From Escherichia phage T4, in sequence record NC_000866.4: a stretch of DNA of 64,000 nt. One strand, 5' to 3'. The notes beneath the pieces are model-generated. The model worked only from the letters and a program-made list of their open reading frames with translations. It was not told the origin of the DNA and ran no database searches. Position numbers and translations under genes: made by a program. Shown here in pieces: positions 11,233 through 57,800 of the stretch (its first letter is position 1; every line of letters starts with the position of its first letter).

Positions 11233-11287
11233 CACTCCGTTTGTATATGATTATAATATCATATTACTTTGGTCTTGTAAATAACTT

Positions 11288-27032: not shown

Positions 27033-27063
27033 TTTGTGTTCCTCATGTTATGTTAGTAAGACT

Positions 27064-27093
27064 ACTATAACACAACACGAGGGACTTGTAAAC
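27064..27093 (-). promoter_or_regulatory. Early sigma70-like promoter upstream of alt.-3
   Basis: Minus strand GTTTACA - 17 nt - TATAGT, then leader with GAGGA RBS; part of a duplicated 52-bp cassette. Confidence 0.6.
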
Positions 27094-27268
27094 TACATTT
27101 TGAACTTTTTAGTACGCGTAATAGGCATGCGTCGATTTTATACTGTTTCATTGTTTGAAGAGCAGTATCAAAAACAGCATTAATGACACCAATTGGATTT
27201 CCACCCAAGTTTTTAAGCTTAACTAATGATAGTTTCTCATTAACACCTATCATTACGATATGCATCAT
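27065..27268 (-). CDS. alt.-2: Alt N-terminal paralogue fragment (matches Alt residues ~64-128)
   Basis: 67-aa ORF MMHIVMIGVN...KQYKIDACLLRVLK aligns to Alt MMHIVPFTLT...RQYKIDACMLRILK. Confidence 0.75.
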   Translation of the reverse strand: MMHIVMIGVNEKLSLVKLKNLGGNPIGVINAVFDTALQTMKQYKIDACLLRVLKSSKCSLQVPRVVL

Positions 27269-33852: not shown

Positions 33853-33920
33853 TTTTATTCTCCGAGATGTTTAATTGCGGTACAGGTATATAATATCATA
33901 TCCTGTACCAAAGTAAACAA

Positions 33921-34253
33921 TTATTTTACTACTTTCCAATGCTGCATGTCAAGTTTACCAACTTTTTTCATCTTCTCAATTAAGCGTTCTGCACGTTGGC
34001 GAGCTGTAACATAATGCCATTCGCCTAATTCATTTTGTTCAATTTTTCCAACGATTACTGTATTCAATTCATAAATCCAACCAGTAAAGAAATTATGAAC
34101 TTGAATTGTAAAGGTGAAATCTGTTCCCATACCTTCTGTTGTTTCTACTTCAATAATATCACCTTCAACTGCCATTAAGAACCACATAGTTTCATCATAT
34201 TTACCATTGAAGCATTTAGTTTTAACTGCAGCGTTCAGATTAATCGTTTTCAT
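33921..34253 (-). CDS. Hypothetical protein (T4 30.x cluster)
   Basis: 110-aa ORF with AAGGAG RBS, just downstream of an early promoter. Confidence 0.65.
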   Translation of the reverse strand: MKTINLNAAVKTKCFNGKYDETMWFLMAVEGDIIEVETTEGMGTDFTFTIQVHNFFTGWIYELNTVIVGKIEQNELGEWHYVTARQRAERLIEKMKKVGKLDMQHWKVVK

Positions 34254-34281
34254 TTTATTCTCCTTTGTTTGTGTAAGATAA

Positions 34282-34311
34282 TACTATCACAAAGGAACTA
34301 TACTGTAAACA
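34282..34311 (-). promoter_or_regulatory. Early sigma70-like promoter in the 30.x cluster
   Basis: Minus strand GTTTACA - 17 nt - TAGTAT, upstream of the 110-aa ORF (AAGGAG RBS). Confidence 0.55.
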
Positions 34312-34329
34312 ACTTTGTGCAATCTTTGG

Positions 34330-34358
34330 AAAATAAAAAAGGACTCCCGAAGGAGTCC
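34330..34358 (-). terminator. Terminator at the end of the 30.x cluster
   Basis: Minus strand GGACUCC-UUCG-GGAGUCC then UUUUUUAUUUU. Confidence 0.75.
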
Positions 34359-34363
34359 TCAAC

Positions 34364-34540
34364 TTATGCTTTCTGCTTACCAAAACGAGAAGCATCATCT
34401 CGAAGAACCGCACGTGCTCGGCGCATGATCTTCTCAACAGTTTGATTGATACGAGAGTTCGACCCACGCTTGTAGCCAGCGCGTTTAGAATCACCAACTT
34501 TCTTTTCAACTGCTTTCTTTGCTTTAGCTTGTTTTGCCAT
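34364..34540 (-). CDS. Small basic protein (58 aa, T4 30.x cluster)
   Basis: Taken from the first ATG (MAKQAKAKK...); Lys/Arg-rich; hairpin terminator immediately downstream. Confidence 0.5.
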   Translation of the reverse strand: MAKQAKAKKAVEKKVGDSKRAGYKRGSNSRINQTVEKIMRRARAVLRDDASRFGKQKA

Positions 34541-37034: not shown

Positions 37035-37261
37035 AGTACGCCATACACCCTTTGTGCTTCAACTAATCCATCAAAATCCAGTTTAAGATGCGATATTTGA
37101 TCGCCATCACCTGGATTCACAATTACTAATACTGAACGAGGAGTTTCGGTAATAACACGAACCGATGTTTCAGGAAATCGTTCAGAAACCTTATTTACTA
37201 ATTCCTGCGCAAATAGTTTAACTTTTTCTTGGAATTCCTTTAACAGTAATCGGTTTTTCAC
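37031..37261 (-). CDS. cd.2: Hypothetical protein
   Basis: 76-aa ORF; ORF-track start is GTG directly after a stop, so the true start is uncertain; early promoter upstream. Confidence 0.55.
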   Translation of the reverse strand: MKNRLLLKEFQEKVKLFAQELVNKVSERFPETSVRVITETPRSVLVIVNPGDGDQISHLKLDFDGLVEAQRVYGVL

Positions 37262-37301
37262 TTAGCAACATTTTGTTTTCCTCATTTGTTTTGGTAGAGC
37301 T

Positions 37302-37331
37302 ATAATATCACAACTCTACCGTAAAGTAAAC
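37302..37331 (-). promoter_or_regulatory. Early sigma70-like promoter upstream of cd.2
   Basis: Minus strand GTTTACT - 17 nt - TATTAT. Confidence 0.5.
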
Positions 37332-40278: not shown

Positions 40279-40306
40279 AAAGTCCTCATGTTATGTCAGT
40301 AAGACT

Positions 40307-40336
40307 ACTATAACACAACACGAGGGACTTGTAAAC
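40307..40336 (-). promoter_or_regulatory. Early sigma70-like promoter upstream of alc
   Basis: Minus strand GTTTACA - 17 nt - TATAGT, then leader with GAGGA RBS; second copy of the duplicated cassette. Confidence 0.6.
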
Positions 40337-40339
40337 AAC

Positions 40340-50004: not shown

Positions 50005-50113
50005 TTTATTCTCCTTAGCAAGCTTTAATCAAAAGATATAAACAGACCAACATAACTGCTGCCATAATATAAGGTGCGAACATTTTCTTTTCTCCATTAG
50101 TTTTGATAGGGTA

Positions 50114-50143
50114 ATAGTATCACACTACTACCCTGATGTAAAC
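50114..50143 (-). promoter_or_regulatory. Early sigma70-like promoter upstream of frd.1
   Basis: Minus strand GTTTACA - 17 nt - TACTAT, overlapping the frd.2 stop. Confidence 0.5.
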
Positions 50144-50802: not shown

Positions 50803-50889
50803 ATTATTTTCCTCTTTAATTATTAGCAGTATTGCCGATAGTTGTATAGTACCATAAAGCTTTATGCTTGTAAACCGTTTTGTGAAAAA

Positions 50890-50925
50890 ATTTTTAAAAT
50901 AAAAAAGGGGACCTCTAGGGTCCCC
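50890..50925 (-). terminator. Terminator after gene 32
   Basis: Minus strand GGGGACC-CUAGA-GGUCCCC followed by a long U-rich tract. Confidence 0.8.
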
Positions 50926-54704: not shown

Positions 54705-54733
54705 ATGAACCTCGTTCAATTAGTGAGATTTCT

Positions 54734-54763
54734 ATTATATACCATCCAAATCTTAAAGTAAAC
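54734..54763 (-). promoter_or_regulatory. Early sigma70-like promoter for rnh
   Basis: Minus strand GTTTACT - 17 nt - TATAAT, about 30 nt upstream of the rnh ATG; back-to-back with the gene 34 late promoter. Confidence 0.55.
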
Positions 54764-54808: not shown

Positions 54809-57800
54809 ATGGCCGAGATTAAAAGAGAATTCAGAGCAGAAGATGGTCTGGACGCAGGTGGTGATAAAATAATCAACGTAGCTTTAGCTGATCGTACCGT
54901 AGGAACTGACGGTGTTAACGTTGATTACTTAATTCAAGAAAACACAGTTCAACAGTATGATCCAACTCGTGGATATTTAAAAGATTTTGTAATCATTTAT
55001 GATAACCGCTTTTGGGCTGCTATAAATGATATTCCAAAACCAGCAGGAGCTTTTAATAGCGGACGCTGGAGAGCATTACGTACCGATGCTAACTGGATTA
55101 CGGTTTCATCTGGTTCATATCAATTAAAATCTGGTGAAGCAATTTCGGTTAACACCGCAGCTGGAAATGACATCACGTTTACTTTACCATCTTCTCCAAT
55201 TGATGGTGATACTATCGTTCTCCAAGATATTGGAGGAAAACCTGGAGTTAACCAAGTTTTAATTGTAGCTCCAGTACAAAGTATTGTAAACTTTAGAGGT
55301 GAACAGGTACGTTCAGTACTAATGACTCATCCAAAGTCACAGCTAGTTTTAATTTTTAGTAATCGTCTGTGGCAAATGTATGTTGCTGATTATAGTAGAG
55401 AAGCTATAGTTGTAACACCAGCGAATACTTATCAAGCGCAATCCAACGATTTTATCGTACGTAGATTTACTTCTGCTGCACCAATTAATGTCAAACTTCC
55501 AAGATTTGCTAATCATGGCGATATTATTAATTTCGTCGATTTAGATAAACTAAATCCGCTTTATCATACAATTGTTACTACATACGATGAAACGACTTCA
55601 GTACAAGAAGTTGGAACTCATTCCATTGAAGGCCGTACATCGATTGACGGTTTCTTGATGTTTGATGATAATGAGAAATTATGGAGACTGTTTGACGGGG
55701 ATAGTAAAGCGCGTTTACGTATCATAACGACTAATTCAAACATTCGTCCAAATGAAGAAGTTATGGTATTTGGTGCGAATAACGGAACAACTCAAACAAT
55801 TGAGCTTAAGCTTCCAACTAATATTTCTGTTGGTGATACTGTTAAAATTTCCATGAATTACATGAGAAAAGGACAAACAGTTAAAATCAAAGCTGCTGAT
55901 GAAGATAAAATTGCTTCTTCAGTTCAATTGCTGCAATTCCCAAAACGCTCAGAATATCCACCTGAAGCTGAATGGGTTACAGTTCAAGAATTAGTTTTTA
56001 ACGATGAAACTAATTATGTTCCAGTTTTGGAGCTTGCTTACATAGAAGATTCTGATGGAAAATATTGGGTTGTACAGCAAAACGTTCCAACTGTAGAAAG
56101 AGTAGATTCTTTAAATGATTCTACTAGAGCAAGATTAGGCGTAATTGCTTTAGCTACACAAGCTCAAGCTAATGTCGATTTAGAAAATTCTCCACAAAAA
56201 GAATTAGCAATTACTCCAGAAACGTTAGCTAATCGTACTGCTACAGAAACTCGCAGAGGTATTGCAAGAATAGCAACTACTGCTCAAGTGAATCAGAACA
56301 CCACATTCTCTTTTGCTGATGATATTATCATCACTCCTAAAAAGCTGAATGAAAGAACTGCTACAGAAACTCGTAGAGGTGTCGCAGAAATTGCTACGCA
56401 GCAAGAAACTAATGCAGGAACCGATGATACTACAATCATCACTCCTAAAAAGCTTCAAGCTCGTCAAGGTTCTGAATCATTATCTGGTATTGTAACCTTT
56501 GTATCTACTGCAGGTGCTACTCCAGCTTCTAGCCGTGAATTAAATGGTACGAATGTTTATAATAAAAACACTGATAATTTAGTTGTTTCACCTAAAGCTT
56601 TGGATCAGTATAAAGCTACTCCAACACAGCAAGGTGCAGTAATTTTAGCAGTTGAAAGTGAAGTAATTGCTGGACAAAGTCAGCAAGGATGGGCAAATGC
56701 TGTTGTAACGCCAGAAACGTTACATAAAAAGACATCAACTGATGGAAGAATTGGTTTAATTGAAATTGCTACGCAAAGTGAAGTTAATACAGGAACTGAT
56801 TATACTCGTGCAGTCACTCCTAAAACTTTAAATGACCGTAGAGCAACTGAAAGTTTAAGTGGTATAGCTGAAATTGCTACACAAGTTGAATTCGACGCAG
56901 GCGTCGACGATACTCGTATCTCTACACCATTAAAAATTAAAACCAGATTTAATAGTACTGATCGTACTTCTGTTGTTGCTCTATCTGGATTAGTTGAATC
57001 AGGAACTCTCTGGGACCATTATACACTTAATATTCTTGAAGCAAATGAGACACAACGTGGTACACTTCGTGTAGCTACGCAGGTCGAAGCTGCTGCGGGA
57101 ACATTAGATAATGTTTTAATAACTCCTAAAAAGCTTTTAGGTACTAAATCTACTGAAGCGCAAGAGGGTGTTATTAAAGTTGCAACTCAGTCTGAAACTG
57201 TGACTGGAACGTCAGCAAATACTGCTGTATCTCCAAAAAATTTAAAATGGATTGCGCAGAGTGAACCTACTTGGGCAGCTACTACTGCAATAAGAGGTTT
57301 TGTTAAAACTTCATCTGGTTCAATTACATTCGTTGGTAATGATACAGTCGGTTCTACCCAAGATTTAGAACTGTATGAGAAAAATAGCTATGCGGTATCA
57401 CCATATGAATTAAACCGTGTATTAGCAAATTATTTGCCACTAAAAGCAAAAGCTGCTGATACAAATTTATTGGATGGTCTAGATTCATCTCAGTTCATTC
57501 GTAGGGATATTGCACAGACGGTTAATGGTTCACTAACCTTAACCCAACAAACGAATCTGAGTGCCCCTCTTGTATCATCTAGTACTGGTGAATTTGGTGG
57601 TTCATTGGCCGCTAATAGAACATTTACCATCCGTAATACAGGAGCCCCGACTAGTATCGTTTTCGAAAAAGGTCCTGCATCCGGGGCAAATCCTGCACAG
57701 TCAATGAGTATTCGTGTATGGGGTAACCAATTTGGCGGCGGTAGTGATACGACCCGTTCGACAGTGTTTGAAGTTGGCGATGACACATCTCATCACTTTT

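What the first reader, a model, noticed from the sequence alone, without database searches (positions are those of the whole stretch)
34282..34311. Family of minus-strand early promoters with fixed GTTTAC(A/T) - 17 nt - TAnnnT architecture
At least six sites share this layout: 27064-27093, 34282-34311, 37302-37331, 40307-40336, 50114-50143 and 54734-54763. Each sits upstream of a gene start in the early block, often with GAGGA or AAGGAG at matching distance, showing how the 27-kb early region is divided into transcription units.
Basis: seen in the sequence. Interest (0 to 1): 0.3.

Follow-up and report, generated by a model that had tools for sequence, protein, structure and literature searches.

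The report
Phage T4 early promoters, rediscovered
The motif family is real, but it is the long-known set of strong "early" promoters that phage T4 uses to capture the E. coli RNA polymerase right after infection, so the finding is correct but ordinary; a less documented extra is that about half of these promoters sit inside a hairpin-forming inverted repeat.

Summary
The window is phage T4 itself (NC_000866 positions 96001-160000). The pattern GTTTACW-N17-TANNNT occurs 8 times, all on the minus strand, against 0.5 expected.

A weight matrix trained only on T4 sites outside the window recovers seven of the eight. It adds 33890-33918 (gene 30.7, 16-nt spacer) and 11253-11282 (segD). It rejects 55262-55291, antisense inside gene 34, as a likely chance match.

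These are the classical sigma-70 T4 early promoters: UP element, -35 GTTTAC, TGn, -10. The published PST/T4 consensus is TTTACW-N17-TAYWAT. For the rnh site, the published Pe148.6 transcript start at map unit 150,727 lies exactly 7 nt after its TATAAT. The genes downstream of the eight block promoters are early-class in published RNA-seq.

The picture of transcription units is incomplete. It misses two early promoters, twelve published MotA-dependent middle promoters and two terminators.

One feature was not found described for T4. In 17 of 40 T4 early promoters the spacer is complementary to the start of the leader, often the Shine-Dalgarno sequence. The resulting hairpin can form only in read-through RNA.

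Verdict: already known, low interest.

The parts
27064..27093 (-). Early promoter upstream of alt.-3: GTTTACA, 17 nt, TGt, TATAGT. Predicted start near 27057.
   Evidence: Exact pattern match; 28.9 bits in the hold-out matrix; alt.-3 is early-class RNA; a 30-nt promoter feature is annotated at the orthologous place in phage Lutter.
33890..33918 (-). Early promoter upstream of 30.7, with a 16-nt spacer (GTTTACT...TGa TATTAT). Predicted start near 33883.
   Evidence: 31.5 bits in the hold-out matrix; conserved in 14 IMG/VR contigs and in Dhakavirus and Mosigvirus phages; a 29-nt promoter feature is annotated in Lutter.
34281..34310 (-). The focal site: early promoter upstream of 30.8 (GTTTACA...TGa TAGTAT). 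Predicted start near 34274; SD AAGGAG; ATG at 34253.
   Evidence: (26.0 bits).
34339..34360 (-). Intrinsic terminator hairpin (GAGGACTCC TTCG GGAGTCCTT plus a T-run) just upstream of the 30.8 promoter. Together they form a terminator-plus-promoter (PeSL-type) cassette.
   Evidence: Terminator scan; annotated as a terminator in relatives; matches the AGNA-loop-TCNT stem-loop described for PST/T4 PeSLs (PMC4122927).
37302..37331 (-). Early promoter upstream of cd.2 (GTTTACT...TGa TATTAT). Predicted start near 37295; SD GAGGA; ATG at 37271.
   Evidence: (29.7 bits).
40307..40336 (-). Early promoter upstream of alc. Its 30-nt core is identical to the alt.-3 promoter. Predicted start near 40300.
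   Evidence: (22.4 bits).
50114..50143 (-). Early promoter downstream of frd.2 (GTTTACA...TGa TACTAT). Predicted start near 50107. It is followed first by a 22-codon ORF, then by frd.1.
   Evidence: (39.4 bits).
50846..50875 (-). Early promoter upstream of frd.3 (GTTTACA...TGg TACTAT). Predicted start near 50839. Probably the published Pe144.6 (inferred from the map-unit offset).
   Evidence: (49.2 bits, the best in the window).
50907..50925 (-). Intrinsic terminator after gene 32, immediately upstream of the frd.3 promoter.
   Evidence: Terminator scan; annotated as a terminator in relatives.
54734..54763 (-). Early promoter upstream of rnh, the published Pe148.6 (GTTTACT...TATAAT, no TGn). 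Start at 54727, which is NC_000866 150,727.
   Evidence: 17.2 bits. PMC6024815 reports primer extension showing activity at 1 min after infection and gives the transcribed region as map units 150,727 to 146,948. The start predicted 7 nt after TATAAT is 150,727.
11253..11282 (-). Early-promoter-like site (ATTTACA-17-TGa TATTAT) upstream of the homing endonuclease gene segD, between late genes 23 and 24.
   Evidence: 27.6 bits in the hold-out matrix; gene context.
55262..55291 (-). Exact pattern match lying antisense inside late gene 34. It has no UP element, no TGn and no downstream ORF with a Shine-Dalgarno. Most likely a chance match.
   Evidence: The leave-one-out score of its non-anchor positions is -22.2 against a background of -27.2 +/- 10. 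It is below 8 bits in the hold-out scan. About 0.5 chance matches are expected per window.
27038..27085 (-). Inverted repeat spanning the alt.-3 promoter. The spacer (CCTCGTGTTGTGTTAT) pairs with the leader, including the SD (ATAACATGAGG); the -10 lies in the apical part. Predicted -23.0 kcal/mol.
   Evidence: z = -5.9 against dinucleotide shuffles. The native partner is more stable than all 38 swapped partners.
40280..40330 (-). The same kind of promoter-spanning, SD-masking hairpin at alc (-23.9 kcal/mol).
   Evidence: z = -5.0. The SD region is less accessible in read-through RNA than in own-promoter RNA (0.21 vs 0.47). The Dhakavirus C6 ortholog keeps the pairing with different arms (TCTCCTCAT / ATGAGGAGA).
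34260..34297 (-). Spacer-to-SD hairpin at the focal 30.8 promoter (TTCCTTTGT / ACAAAGGAG).
   Evidence: z about -2.7 to -2.9. Probability that the SD region is unpaired: 0.40 in read-through RNA, 0.85 in own-promoter RNA.
37293..37320 (-). Compact palindrome centred on the first bases of the -10 hexamer of the cd.2 promoter (GGTAGAGTTGTG / TATAGCTCTACC).
   Evidence: z = -4.6 to -5.5. The Mosigvirus G53 ortholog keeps the pairing through wobble-to-Watson-Crick changes.
33878..33910 (-). Compact palindrome across the 30.7 promoter (GGTACAGG...CCTGTACC).
   Evidence: z = -3.8 to -3.95. The arms are invariant in three genera while the flanks diverge. The one variant found (C to T) keeps a G-U pair.
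50108..50134 (-). Compact palindrome across the promoter at 50114-50143 (GGGTAGTAGT / ACTATTACCC).
   Evidence: z = -3.0. A relative variant, AGGCTATGGTA / TACTATAGCCT, keeps an 11-bp stem with different arms.
40283..40339 (-). One of two copies of a 57-nt duplicated promoter-leader-SD cassette (55 of 57 bases identical). The other copy is 27040-27096.

Best explanation
The sites are the early promoters (Pe) of bacteriophage T4. Unmodified E. coli sigma-70 RNA polymerase recognises them immediately after DNA injection. The recognition elements are an A/T-rich UP element, a -35 element GTTTAC (sigma-70 hexamer TTTACW), a 17-bp spacer (16 bp at one site), an extended -10 TGn at most sites, and a -10 hexamer TAnnnT. 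Transcription starts about 7 nt after the hexamer and runs leftward on the minus strand. Each transcript has a 20-37 nt leader with a strong Shine-Dalgarno sequence. The promoters head eight early transcription units between gene 54 and gene 34. Shown here: the motif, its enrichment, its strand bias, its positions relative to genes, and the identity of the sequence with T4. Taken from the literature: sigma-70 dependence, activity at 1 min for the rnh promoter, and the early RNA class of the downstream genes. Inferred: the exact start sites of the other seven promoters. In addition, at six of the nine promoters in the window the spacer is complementary to the first nucleotides of the leader or to the Shine-Dalgarno sequence. 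Such a hairpin cannot form in RNA started at that promoter. It can form in RNA reading through from upstream. There it most likely masks the ribosome-binding site or provides a stable intercistronic stem. This last step is inference.
For: The window is 100% identical to T4. It maps to NC_000866 with an offset of exactly 96000 (gene coordinates; 17 published middle-promoter starts checked, most landing on a MotA box plus -10). There are 8 exact matches against 0.51 expected, all on the minus strand. Genome-wide there are 38 matches with N17, all on the minus strand. The hold-out matrix finds 9 sites against 0-1 in shuffles. [quoted passage not shown] For Pe148.6 upstream of rnh, primer extension shows activity at 1 min and the transcribed region starts at map unit 150,727 (PMC6024815), which equals the predicted start. 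The first genes downstream are all early-class RNA (PMC9697503 supplement). RefSeq phage Lutter carries 29- or 30-nt promoter features at seven orthologous places. Hairpins: 17 of 40 T4 sites have z < -3, against 7 of 150 random windows. Native spacer-leader pairs average -12.5 kcal/mol and swapped pairs -7.7 (Mann-Whitney p = 3e-5). Changes that keep the pairing are seen between genera. The sense strand folds 5.2 kcal/mol better than the antisense strand, against a background difference of 1.3-2.5, and carries 41 G-U pairs against 8.
Against: Only one of the nine promoters in the window could be tied to a published 5' end with the sources available. Neither the T4 dRNA-seq start-site table (GSE255091) nor the promoter table of Miller et al. 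2003 could be read. Site 54734-54763 lacks TGn and has a weak UP region. Site 55262-55291 fits the pattern but nothing else. For the hairpins there is no experimental evidence, covariation rests on a handful of genomes, and about half of T4 early promoters have no such hairpin.
Confidence: 0.95

Rival explanations
1. The matches are chance sigma-70-like sequences in an AT-rich genome and have no function.
For: A generic TTGACA/TATAAT scan finds as many sites as in shuffled sequence (57 vs 53 and 71 vs 61). One exact match, 55262-55291, looks like background in every other respect.
Against: The specific pattern occurs 8 times against 0.51 expected. There are 38 exact N17 matches genome-wide, all on one strand. 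The non-anchor positions (UP region, TGn, leader) also score far above background at seven of the eight sites. The sites lie 20-37 nt upstream of SD-plus-start codons of early genes. A 5' end is published for one of them.
Confidence: 0.02
2. The sites are MotA/AsiA-dependent middle promoters rather than early promoters.
For: RNA from Pe148.6 (rnh) is reduced in a motA amber infection (PMC6024815). The block contains twelve published middle promoters.
Against: Middle promoters carry a MotA box (tGCTT) centred at -30 in place of a -35 element. This is seen at most of the published positions. None of the GTTTAC sites has one, and none coincides with a listed middle-promoter start. [quoted passage not shown]
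Confidence: 0.02
3. The promoter-spanning inverted repeats are duplex-DNA elements: an operator for a dimeric repressor that shuts off early transcription, or cruciforms used in recombination. On this reading they are not RNA structures.
For: Six T4 promoters have a palindrome centred exactly between the first two bases of the -10 hexamer, against 0.56 expected. The mechanism of early-promoter shut-off is described as not completely understood (PMC3014915). PeSL stem-loops have been proposed as recombination sites (PMC2839356).
Against: The arm sequences differ completely between promoters (GGTACAGG, GGTAGAG, GGGTAGTAGT, GACAAGACT and others), so there is no common protein-binding sequence. 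The stems hold 41 G-U pairs on the sense strand, which would be C-A mismatches on the other strand. The sense strand is more stable in 18 of 20 cases, beyond the compositional bias. Nine of the strong hairpins pair the spacer with a Shine-Dalgarno 25-35 nt away, which makes sense only at the RNA level.
Confidence: 0.12
4. The repeated motif mainly reflects mobile promoter-plus-stem-loop cassettes (PeSLs) that spread by recombination, so the similarity between sites is due to common descent rather than to selection on each promoter.
For: A 57-nt cassette is duplicated at alt.-3 and alc (55 of 57 identical). The frd.3 cassette is nearly identical to one upstream of nrdC.10. Klebsiella phages share only the terminator-plus-promoter segment of the 30.8 region at 76-91% identity. 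The PeSL concept is published for RB49/phi1 and PST/T4.
Against: This complements promoter function rather than replacing it. The spacers and leaders of most sites are unrelated to one another, while the -35, TGn and -10 are kept.
Confidence: 0.3

Closest known systems
Bacteriophage T4 early promoters (Pe), as reviewed by Hinton 2010 (PMC2988021). From my own knowledge, they were catalogued by Liebig & Ruger 1989, Wilkens & Ruger 1994 and Miller et al. 2003.
   Same: Same genome, same sequences, same consensus (UP element, GTTTAC at -36 to -31, TGn, TAnnnT), same strand and same gene context. One site is the published Pe148.6.
   Different: Nothing differs.
PeSL cassettes (promoter-early stem-loop) of T4-like phages (Arbiol et al. 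2010, PMC2839356; Comeau et al. 2014, PMC4122927).
   Same: An early promoter is combined with a stem-loop, and the cassettes are repeated between loci. The promoters of 30.8 and frd.3 have the upstream terminator stem-loop described for PST/T4. In RB49/phi1 the stem-loops commonly lie between -35 and -10 or overlap the -10.
   Different: For the PST/T4 pair the published figure legend places the stem-loops 'just upstream' of the promoter. The -10-spanning and SD-pairing stems seen here in T4 lack a U-run, so they are not intrinsic terminators. I did not find them described for T4.
Ribosome-binding-site masking hairpins with an internal promoter at T4 genes e, soc, 49 and I-TevI (reviewed in PMC3014915).
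   Same: The SD or AUG is paired in long read-through transcripts. The gene's own promoter lies within or after the 5' arm, so its transcripts lack the inhibitory arm. The geometry at alt.-3, alc and 30.8 is the same.
   Different: In the known cases the internal promoter is a late promoter and the hairpin delays expression. Here the internal promoter is an early one. No translation data exist for these genes.
Strong sigma-70 phage promoters such as T7 A1 and lambda PL, and the E. coli UP/-35/TGn/-10 architecture.
   Same: The same holoenzyme and the same element layout with a 17-bp spacer.
   Different: T4 prefers T rather than G at the third position of the -35 hexamer (TTTACA rather than TTGACA), preceded by a conserved G. 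It favours -10 hexamers such as TACTAT and TATAGT.

Membership tests
T4 early promoter (Pe) | -35 element GTTTAC (-36 to -31) | tested here: met
   Exact at all eight pattern matches and at 33918. ATTTAC at the segD site. Consensus taken from PMC1524935.
T4 early promoter (Pe) | 17 +/- 1 bp between the sigma-70 -35 hexamer (TTTACW) and the -10 hexamer TAnnnT | tested here: met
   17 bp at eight sites and 16 bp at the 30.7 site.
T4 early promoter (Pe) | Extended -10 (TGn) immediately upstream of the -10 hexamer | tested here: met
   Present at 27093, 33918, 34310, 37331, 40336, 50143, 50875 and 11282. Absent at 54763 and 55291.
T4 early promoter (Pe) | A/T-rich UP-like region upstream of -35 (consensus near ttTCACAAAgtt) | tested here: met
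   Leave-one-out scores of the non-anchor positions are 10 to 27.5 at six of the window's eight exact matches and 0.3 at 54763 (weak), against a background of -27 +/- 10. Site 55291 fails with -22.2.
T4 early promoter (Pe) | Oriented toward an early gene, with a leader and Shine-Dalgarno sequence | tested here: met
   Gene context and leader lengths. The genes downstream of the eight block promoters are early-class RNA. Site 55291 is the exception.
T4 early promoter (Pe) | Primary 5' ends appear immediately after infection without phage protein synthesis, using sigma-70 holoenzyme alone | not testable with these tools
   Published for the rnh site only: Pe148.6, primer extension at 1 min and in vitro transcription (PMC6024815). 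The dRNA-seq start-site table for T4 was not readable.
T4 early promoter (Pe) | Stimulation of some members by Alt-mediated ADP-ribosylation of the RNA polymerase alpha subunit | not testable with these tools
   Literature only (PMC2988021).
PeSL cassette | An early promoter physically combined with a stable stem-loop | tested here: met
   Upstream terminator hairpins at 34339-34360 and 50907-50925. Promoter-spanning stems with z < -2.5 at six window sites.
PeSL cassette | The stem-loop acts as a terminator or attenuator of upstream transcription | not testable with these tools
   The two upstream hairpins have T-runs. The promoter-spanning stems have none.
PeSL cassette | Cassettes are repeated between loci and associated with gene shuffling | tested here: met
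   57-nt duplicate at alt.-3 and alc. The frd.3 cassette recurs upstream of nrdC.10. Only the 30.8 cassette is shared with Klebsiella phages.
Promoter-in-hairpin translational masking (e / soc / 49 / I-TevI type) | SD or AUG paired in read-through RNA but free in RNA from the proximal promoter | tested here: inconclusive
   Predicted probability that the SD region is unpaired, read-through vs own-promoter RNA: alt.-3 0.39 vs 0.60, 30.8 0.40 vs 0.85, alc 0.21 vs 0.47. There is no difference for 30.7, frd.1 and rnh. This is prediction only.
Promoter-in-hairpin translational masking (e / soc / 49 / I-TevI type) | A measured difference in translation between long and short transcripts | not testable with these tools
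   No data found.

The most novel reading that the evidence does not exclude
About half of T4's early promoters are built inside a selected RNA hairpin. The promoter spacer forms the 5' arm. The 3' arm is either the Shine-Dalgarno region (class II, for example alt.-3, alc and 30.8) or the -10/discriminator/+1 region (class I, a palindrome centred at -12/-11, for example 30.7, cd.2 and the promoter at 50114-50143). The structure therefore exists only in transcripts that read through from an upstream promoter. This would be a genome-wide device that separates promoter-proximal expression from read-through expression. It would generalise to early promoters the mechanism known for the late genes e, soc, 49 and I-TevI. 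I did not find it described for T4.
Probability: 0.35. Interest if true: 0.45.

Novelty: already known. Interest (0 to 1): 0.12.

Why it matters
As stated, the finding adds nothing to T4 biology. The early promoters and their consensus have been in the literature for decades. Its value is as a positive control: a reader working from raw sequence recovered a true regulatory motif family with correct strand, spacing and gene context. The side observation could matter more. If the promoter-embedded hairpins work as proposed, they would explain how tightly packed tandem early units keep promoter-proximal and read-through expression distinct. They could also explain the stable 3' ends of early RNAs that are not true terminators. 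They would be useful insulator parts for engineered phage or synthetic operons.

Tried and rejected
- The reference T4 records AF158101 and NC_000866, which might carry promoter features, are not in the phage collection. The T4, T4T and R5505 records that are held carry no promoter features.
- Miller et al. 2003 (PMC150520) is not held.
- A T4 dRNA-seq study exists (bioRxiv 10.1101/2024.04.04.588121; 150 T4 start sites; GSE255091), but its start-site table is not among the held supplements and the text names none of these genes.
- A generic sigma-70 scan does not discriminate in this AT-rich DNA.
- The search for related loci with the small proteins Cd.2 and Frd.1 returned only 5 close relatives each. 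Covariation was therefore judged from three 40-kb regions of Tequatrovirus, Dhakavirus and Mosigvirus phages. I did not run a formal covariation count, because register shifts between variants prevent a gap-free alignment.
- Rejected: 55262-55291 as a family member.
- Rejected: the second 'promoter' feature that phage Lutter annotates directly upstream of frd.1. It has no convincing -10.
- Rejected: a link between 55262-55291 and the ori34 middle promoter P34i, which lies 1.7 kb away at window 57011.
- An exact look-up of the 22-residue peptide found nothing.

Full report
**Identity of the window.** A 3-kb segment around the focal site is 100% identical to several phage T4 records. Gene coordinates listed for NC_000866 in a published supplement (alt.-3 at 122742-123032, 30.8 at 129921-130253) equal the window ORFs plus exactly 96000. 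As a check, I placed the 17 published middle-promoter start sites of this region on the window with that offset. Most land on a MotA box (tGCTT) near -30 plus a -10 hexamer. The window is therefore NC_000866 96001-160000. The minus-strand block at 26.7-54.8 kb runs from alt.-3 to rnh.

**The observation.** GTTTACW-N17-TANNNT occurs 8 times, all on the minus strand, against 0.51 expected from shuffles. The focal one is 34281-34310, off by one base. Two exact matches were not listed: 50846-50875 and 55262-55291.

I stitched the rest of the T4T genome to the window. Genome-wide there are 38 N17 matches, all on the minus strand, plus two with N16 on the minus strand and two with N18 on the plus strand.

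To avoid circularity I trained a weight matrix on the 30 sites outside the window and scanned the window. It gives nine hits of at least 8 bits, all on the minus strand, against 0-1 per shuffle. The nine are seven of the eight exact matches, the 30.7 promoter at 33890-33918 (16-nt spacer), and an ATTTACA variant at 11253-11282 upstream of segD.

The eighth exact match, 55262-55291, lies antisense inside gene 34. It has no TGn, no A-rich upstream region and no downstream SD or ORF. Its non-anchor positions score -22, against a background of -27 +/- 10 and 0.3 to 27.5 for the other window sites. With 0.5 chance matches expected per window, it is best read as chance.

A generic TTGACA/TATAAT scan is not enriched at all. 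The signal is the T4-specific form of the promoter.

**What the sites are.** The literature gives the same consensus.
- GTTTAC at -36 to -31 for T4 early promoters (PMC1524935).
- 'Uber' UP/-35/TGn/-10 promoters that outcompete host promoters and are in part stimulated by the injected Alt ADP-ribosyltransferase (PMC2988021).

The genes downstream of the eight block promoters are alt.-3, 30.7, 30.8, cd.2, alc, frd.1, frd.3 and rnh. All are classed as early at the RNA level in a time-resolved transcriptome. A RefSeq relative, phage Lutter (97.5% identical), carries 29- or 30-nt promoter features at the orthologous positions of seven of them.

One site has direct experimental support. Patterson-West et al. 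2018 describe Pe148.6 upstream of rnh. It is active at 1 min after infection by primer extension and is transcribed in vitro. Its transcribed region is given as map units 150,727 to 146,948. The start predicted from site 54734-54763, 7 nt after TATAAT, is window 54727, which is 150,727. Pe144.6, also assayed there, is probably the frd.3 promoter; this rests only on the map-unit offset.

**Transcription units.** The predicted early starts are at window positions 54727, 50839, 50107, 40300, 37295, 34274, 33883 and 27057. They give eight early units:
- rnh to gene 32
- frd.3 and frd.2
- small ORF, frd.1 and on to rnlA
- alc to cd.3
- cd.2 to 30.9
- 30.8
- 30.7 to alt.1
- alt.-3

Strong intrinsic terminators lie at 50907-50925 (after gene 32) and 34339-34360 (after 30.9). 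Twelve published MotA-dependent middle promoters lie in the same block: P30, P30.2, P31, Pcd, PI-TevIII, PnrdB+, PnrdA, Ptd, P32, PsegG and two PdsbA.

- Behind 50114-50143, the SD (GGAG) and ATG 'at matching distance' belong to an unannotated 22-codon ORF at 50015-50083 (MFAPYIMAAVMLVCLYLLIKAC). The frd.1 start lies 103 nt from the predicted transcription start.
- Behind 37302-37331, the SD-served ATG is at 37271. In this sequence it is out of frame with the annotated cd.2, which starts at GTG 37261. The cause is an extra G at 37237-37238 relative to T4T. T4T and a Mosigvirus have an intact ATG-start ORF.

**Beyond the finding: promoter-spanning hairpins.** While aligning the sites I saw that the spacer is complementary to sequence just downstream of the -10. 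Folding the segment from just after GTTTAC to 35 nt past the -10 gives these z-scores against dinucleotide shuffles:

| Promoter | z-score |
|---|---|
| alt.-3 | -5.9 |
| alc | -5.0 |
| cd.2 | -4.6 |
| 30.7 | -3.8 |
| 50114-50143 | -3.0 |
| 30.8 | -2.9 |

Genome-wide, 17 of 40 early promoters have z < -3 and 20 have z < -2, against 7 and 17 of 150 random windows. Native spacer-leader combinations fold to -12.5 kcal/mol on average and swapped combinations to -7.7 (p = 3e-5). At 16 sites the native partner is more stable than every swapped one.

Two geometries appear.
- **Class II.** The spacer pairs with the Shine-Dalgarno region 25-35 nt downstream. Examples are alt.-3, alc and 30.8, and elsewhere the promoters of dexA, modA.2, nrdC.9, regB, ipII and ndd.4.
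- **Class I.** A compact palindrome of 8-15 bp ends near +1 to +3. In six promoters it is centred exactly between the first two bases of the -10 hexamer, against 0.56 expected.

In both classes the 5' arm lies upstream of the transcription start. The hairpin therefore cannot form in RNA from that promoter, only in read-through RNA or in single-stranded DNA.

Comparison with Dhakavirus C6 and Mosigvirus G53 shows pairing kept through sequence change:

| Promoter | T4 arms | Relative's arms |
|---|---|---|
| alc | GTCCCTCGT / ATGAGGAC | TCTCCTCAT / ATGAGGAGA |
| frd.1-type | GGGTAGTAGT / ACTATTACCC | AGGCTATGGTA / TACTATAGCCT |
| motB.1-type | GGGACC / GGTCCC | GGGAGC / GCTCCT |
| dmd vs mobD.2 (T4 paralogues) | GCTGACAAGACT / AGTCTTGTCGGT | GTTGACAAGATT / AATCTTGTCAAC |

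The arm sequences differ between promoters, which argues against a common protein operator. The stems carry 41 G-U pairs on the sense strand against 8 on the antisense strand. The sense strand is more stable in 18 of 20 cases, by 5.2 kcal/mol, against a compositional background of 1.3-2.5. This points to selection at the level of sense RNA.

Predicted accessibility of the SD region is lower in read-through RNA than in own-promoter RNA for alc (0.21 vs 0.47), 30.8 (0.40 vs 0.85) and alt.-3 (0.39 vs 0.60).

**How the hairpins relate to what is known.** Arbiol et al. 2010 described PeSL cassettes in RB49/phi1 whose stem-loops often lie between -35 and -10 or overlap the -10. They proposed terminator/attenuator and recombination roles. 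For PST/T4, Comeau et al. 2014 place the stem-loops just upstream of the promoter. That fits the terminators at 34339-34360 and 50907-50925, not the stems described here.

The review of T4 post-transcriptional control lists SD-masking hairpins with an internal late promoter only for e, soc, 49 and I-TevI. Patterson-West et al. note that many mapped 3' ends of early RNAs are thought to be ends of stable RNA rather than termination sites. That is compatible with class I stems acting as decay barriers.

I found no description of this architecture for T4 early promoters in the searchable library. The older T4 literature could not be searched, so I rate the novelty of this side observation cautiously.

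**Verdict.** The finding is the textbook set of T4 early promoters: already known, low interest. The promoter-embedded hairpins are a statistically solid, possibly under-described feature that deserves a test against existing 5'- and 3'-end sequencing data.

Noticed in passing
window 27038-27085, 33878-33910, 34260-34297, 37293-37320, 40280-40330, 50108-50134 (and 11 further T4 early promoters outside the window): The promoter spacer is complementary to the start of the leader or to the Shine-Dalgarno sequence, giving hairpins with z of -3 to -7. They can form only in read-through RNA. There are two geometric classes, strand-asymmetric G-U content, and changes that keep the pairing between genera.
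   Followed up: yes
window 27040-27096 and 40283-40339: A 57-nt direct repeat (55 of 57 identical) covers the -35, spacer, -10, leader and Shine-Dalgarno of the alt.-3 and alc promoters. The two promoters differ from each other in Dhakavirus C6 and Mosigvirus G53, so the duplication or conversion appears specific to the T4 lineage.
   Followed up: partly
window 50015-50083 (-): An unannotated 22-codon ORF (MFAPYIMAAVMLVCLYLLIKAC, hydrophobic) has a GGAG Shine-Dalgarno sequence 9 nt upstream. It lies directly behind the early promoter at 50114-50143 and ahead of frd.1. It is present unchanged in phage Lutter. It is absent from relatives in which a variant promoter sits directly before frd.1. 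The exact peptide is not in the protein collection.
   Followed up: partly
window 37237-37238 (-), within cd.2: This sequence has GG where T4T has a single G. The ATG at 37271, which is served by the GAGGA Shine-Dalgarno, is thereby put out of frame, and the reference annotation starts cd.2 at GTG 37261. T4T and a Mosigvirus encode an intact ATG-start protein (MLLSEKPITVKEFQ...). This is a likely sequencing error or strain polymorphism in the reference.
   Followed up: partly
window 11253-11282 (-): An early-promoter-like site (ATTTACA-17-TGa TATTAT, 27.6 bits) lies upstream of the homing endonuclease gene segD. It is embedded between late genes 23 and 24 on the opposite strand.
   Followed up: partly
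window 55262-55291 (-): An exact match to the promoter pattern lies antisense inside late gene 34, without any of the auxiliary promoter features. It is probably chance. If active it would make an antisense RNA to the gene 34 mRNA. It is distinct from the ori34 middle promoter P34i at window 57011.
   Followed up: partly
window 50846-50925 (-) and T4 near 55.3 kb (upstream of nrdC.10); also window 34215-34399: The terminator-UP-promoter cassette of frd.3 recurs almost identically upstream of nrdC.10. In the 30.8 region, only the terminator-plus-promoter segment is shared with Klebsiella phages (76-91% identity) while the flanking genes are not. This is consistent with mobile regulatory cassettes.
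   Followed up: no
L032 37509-37538 (phage Lutter): The RefSeq record annotates a second 'promoter' directly upstream of frd.1, inside the small ORF. It has GTTTAT and no convincing -10, so it looks like an over-prediction.
   Followed up: partly
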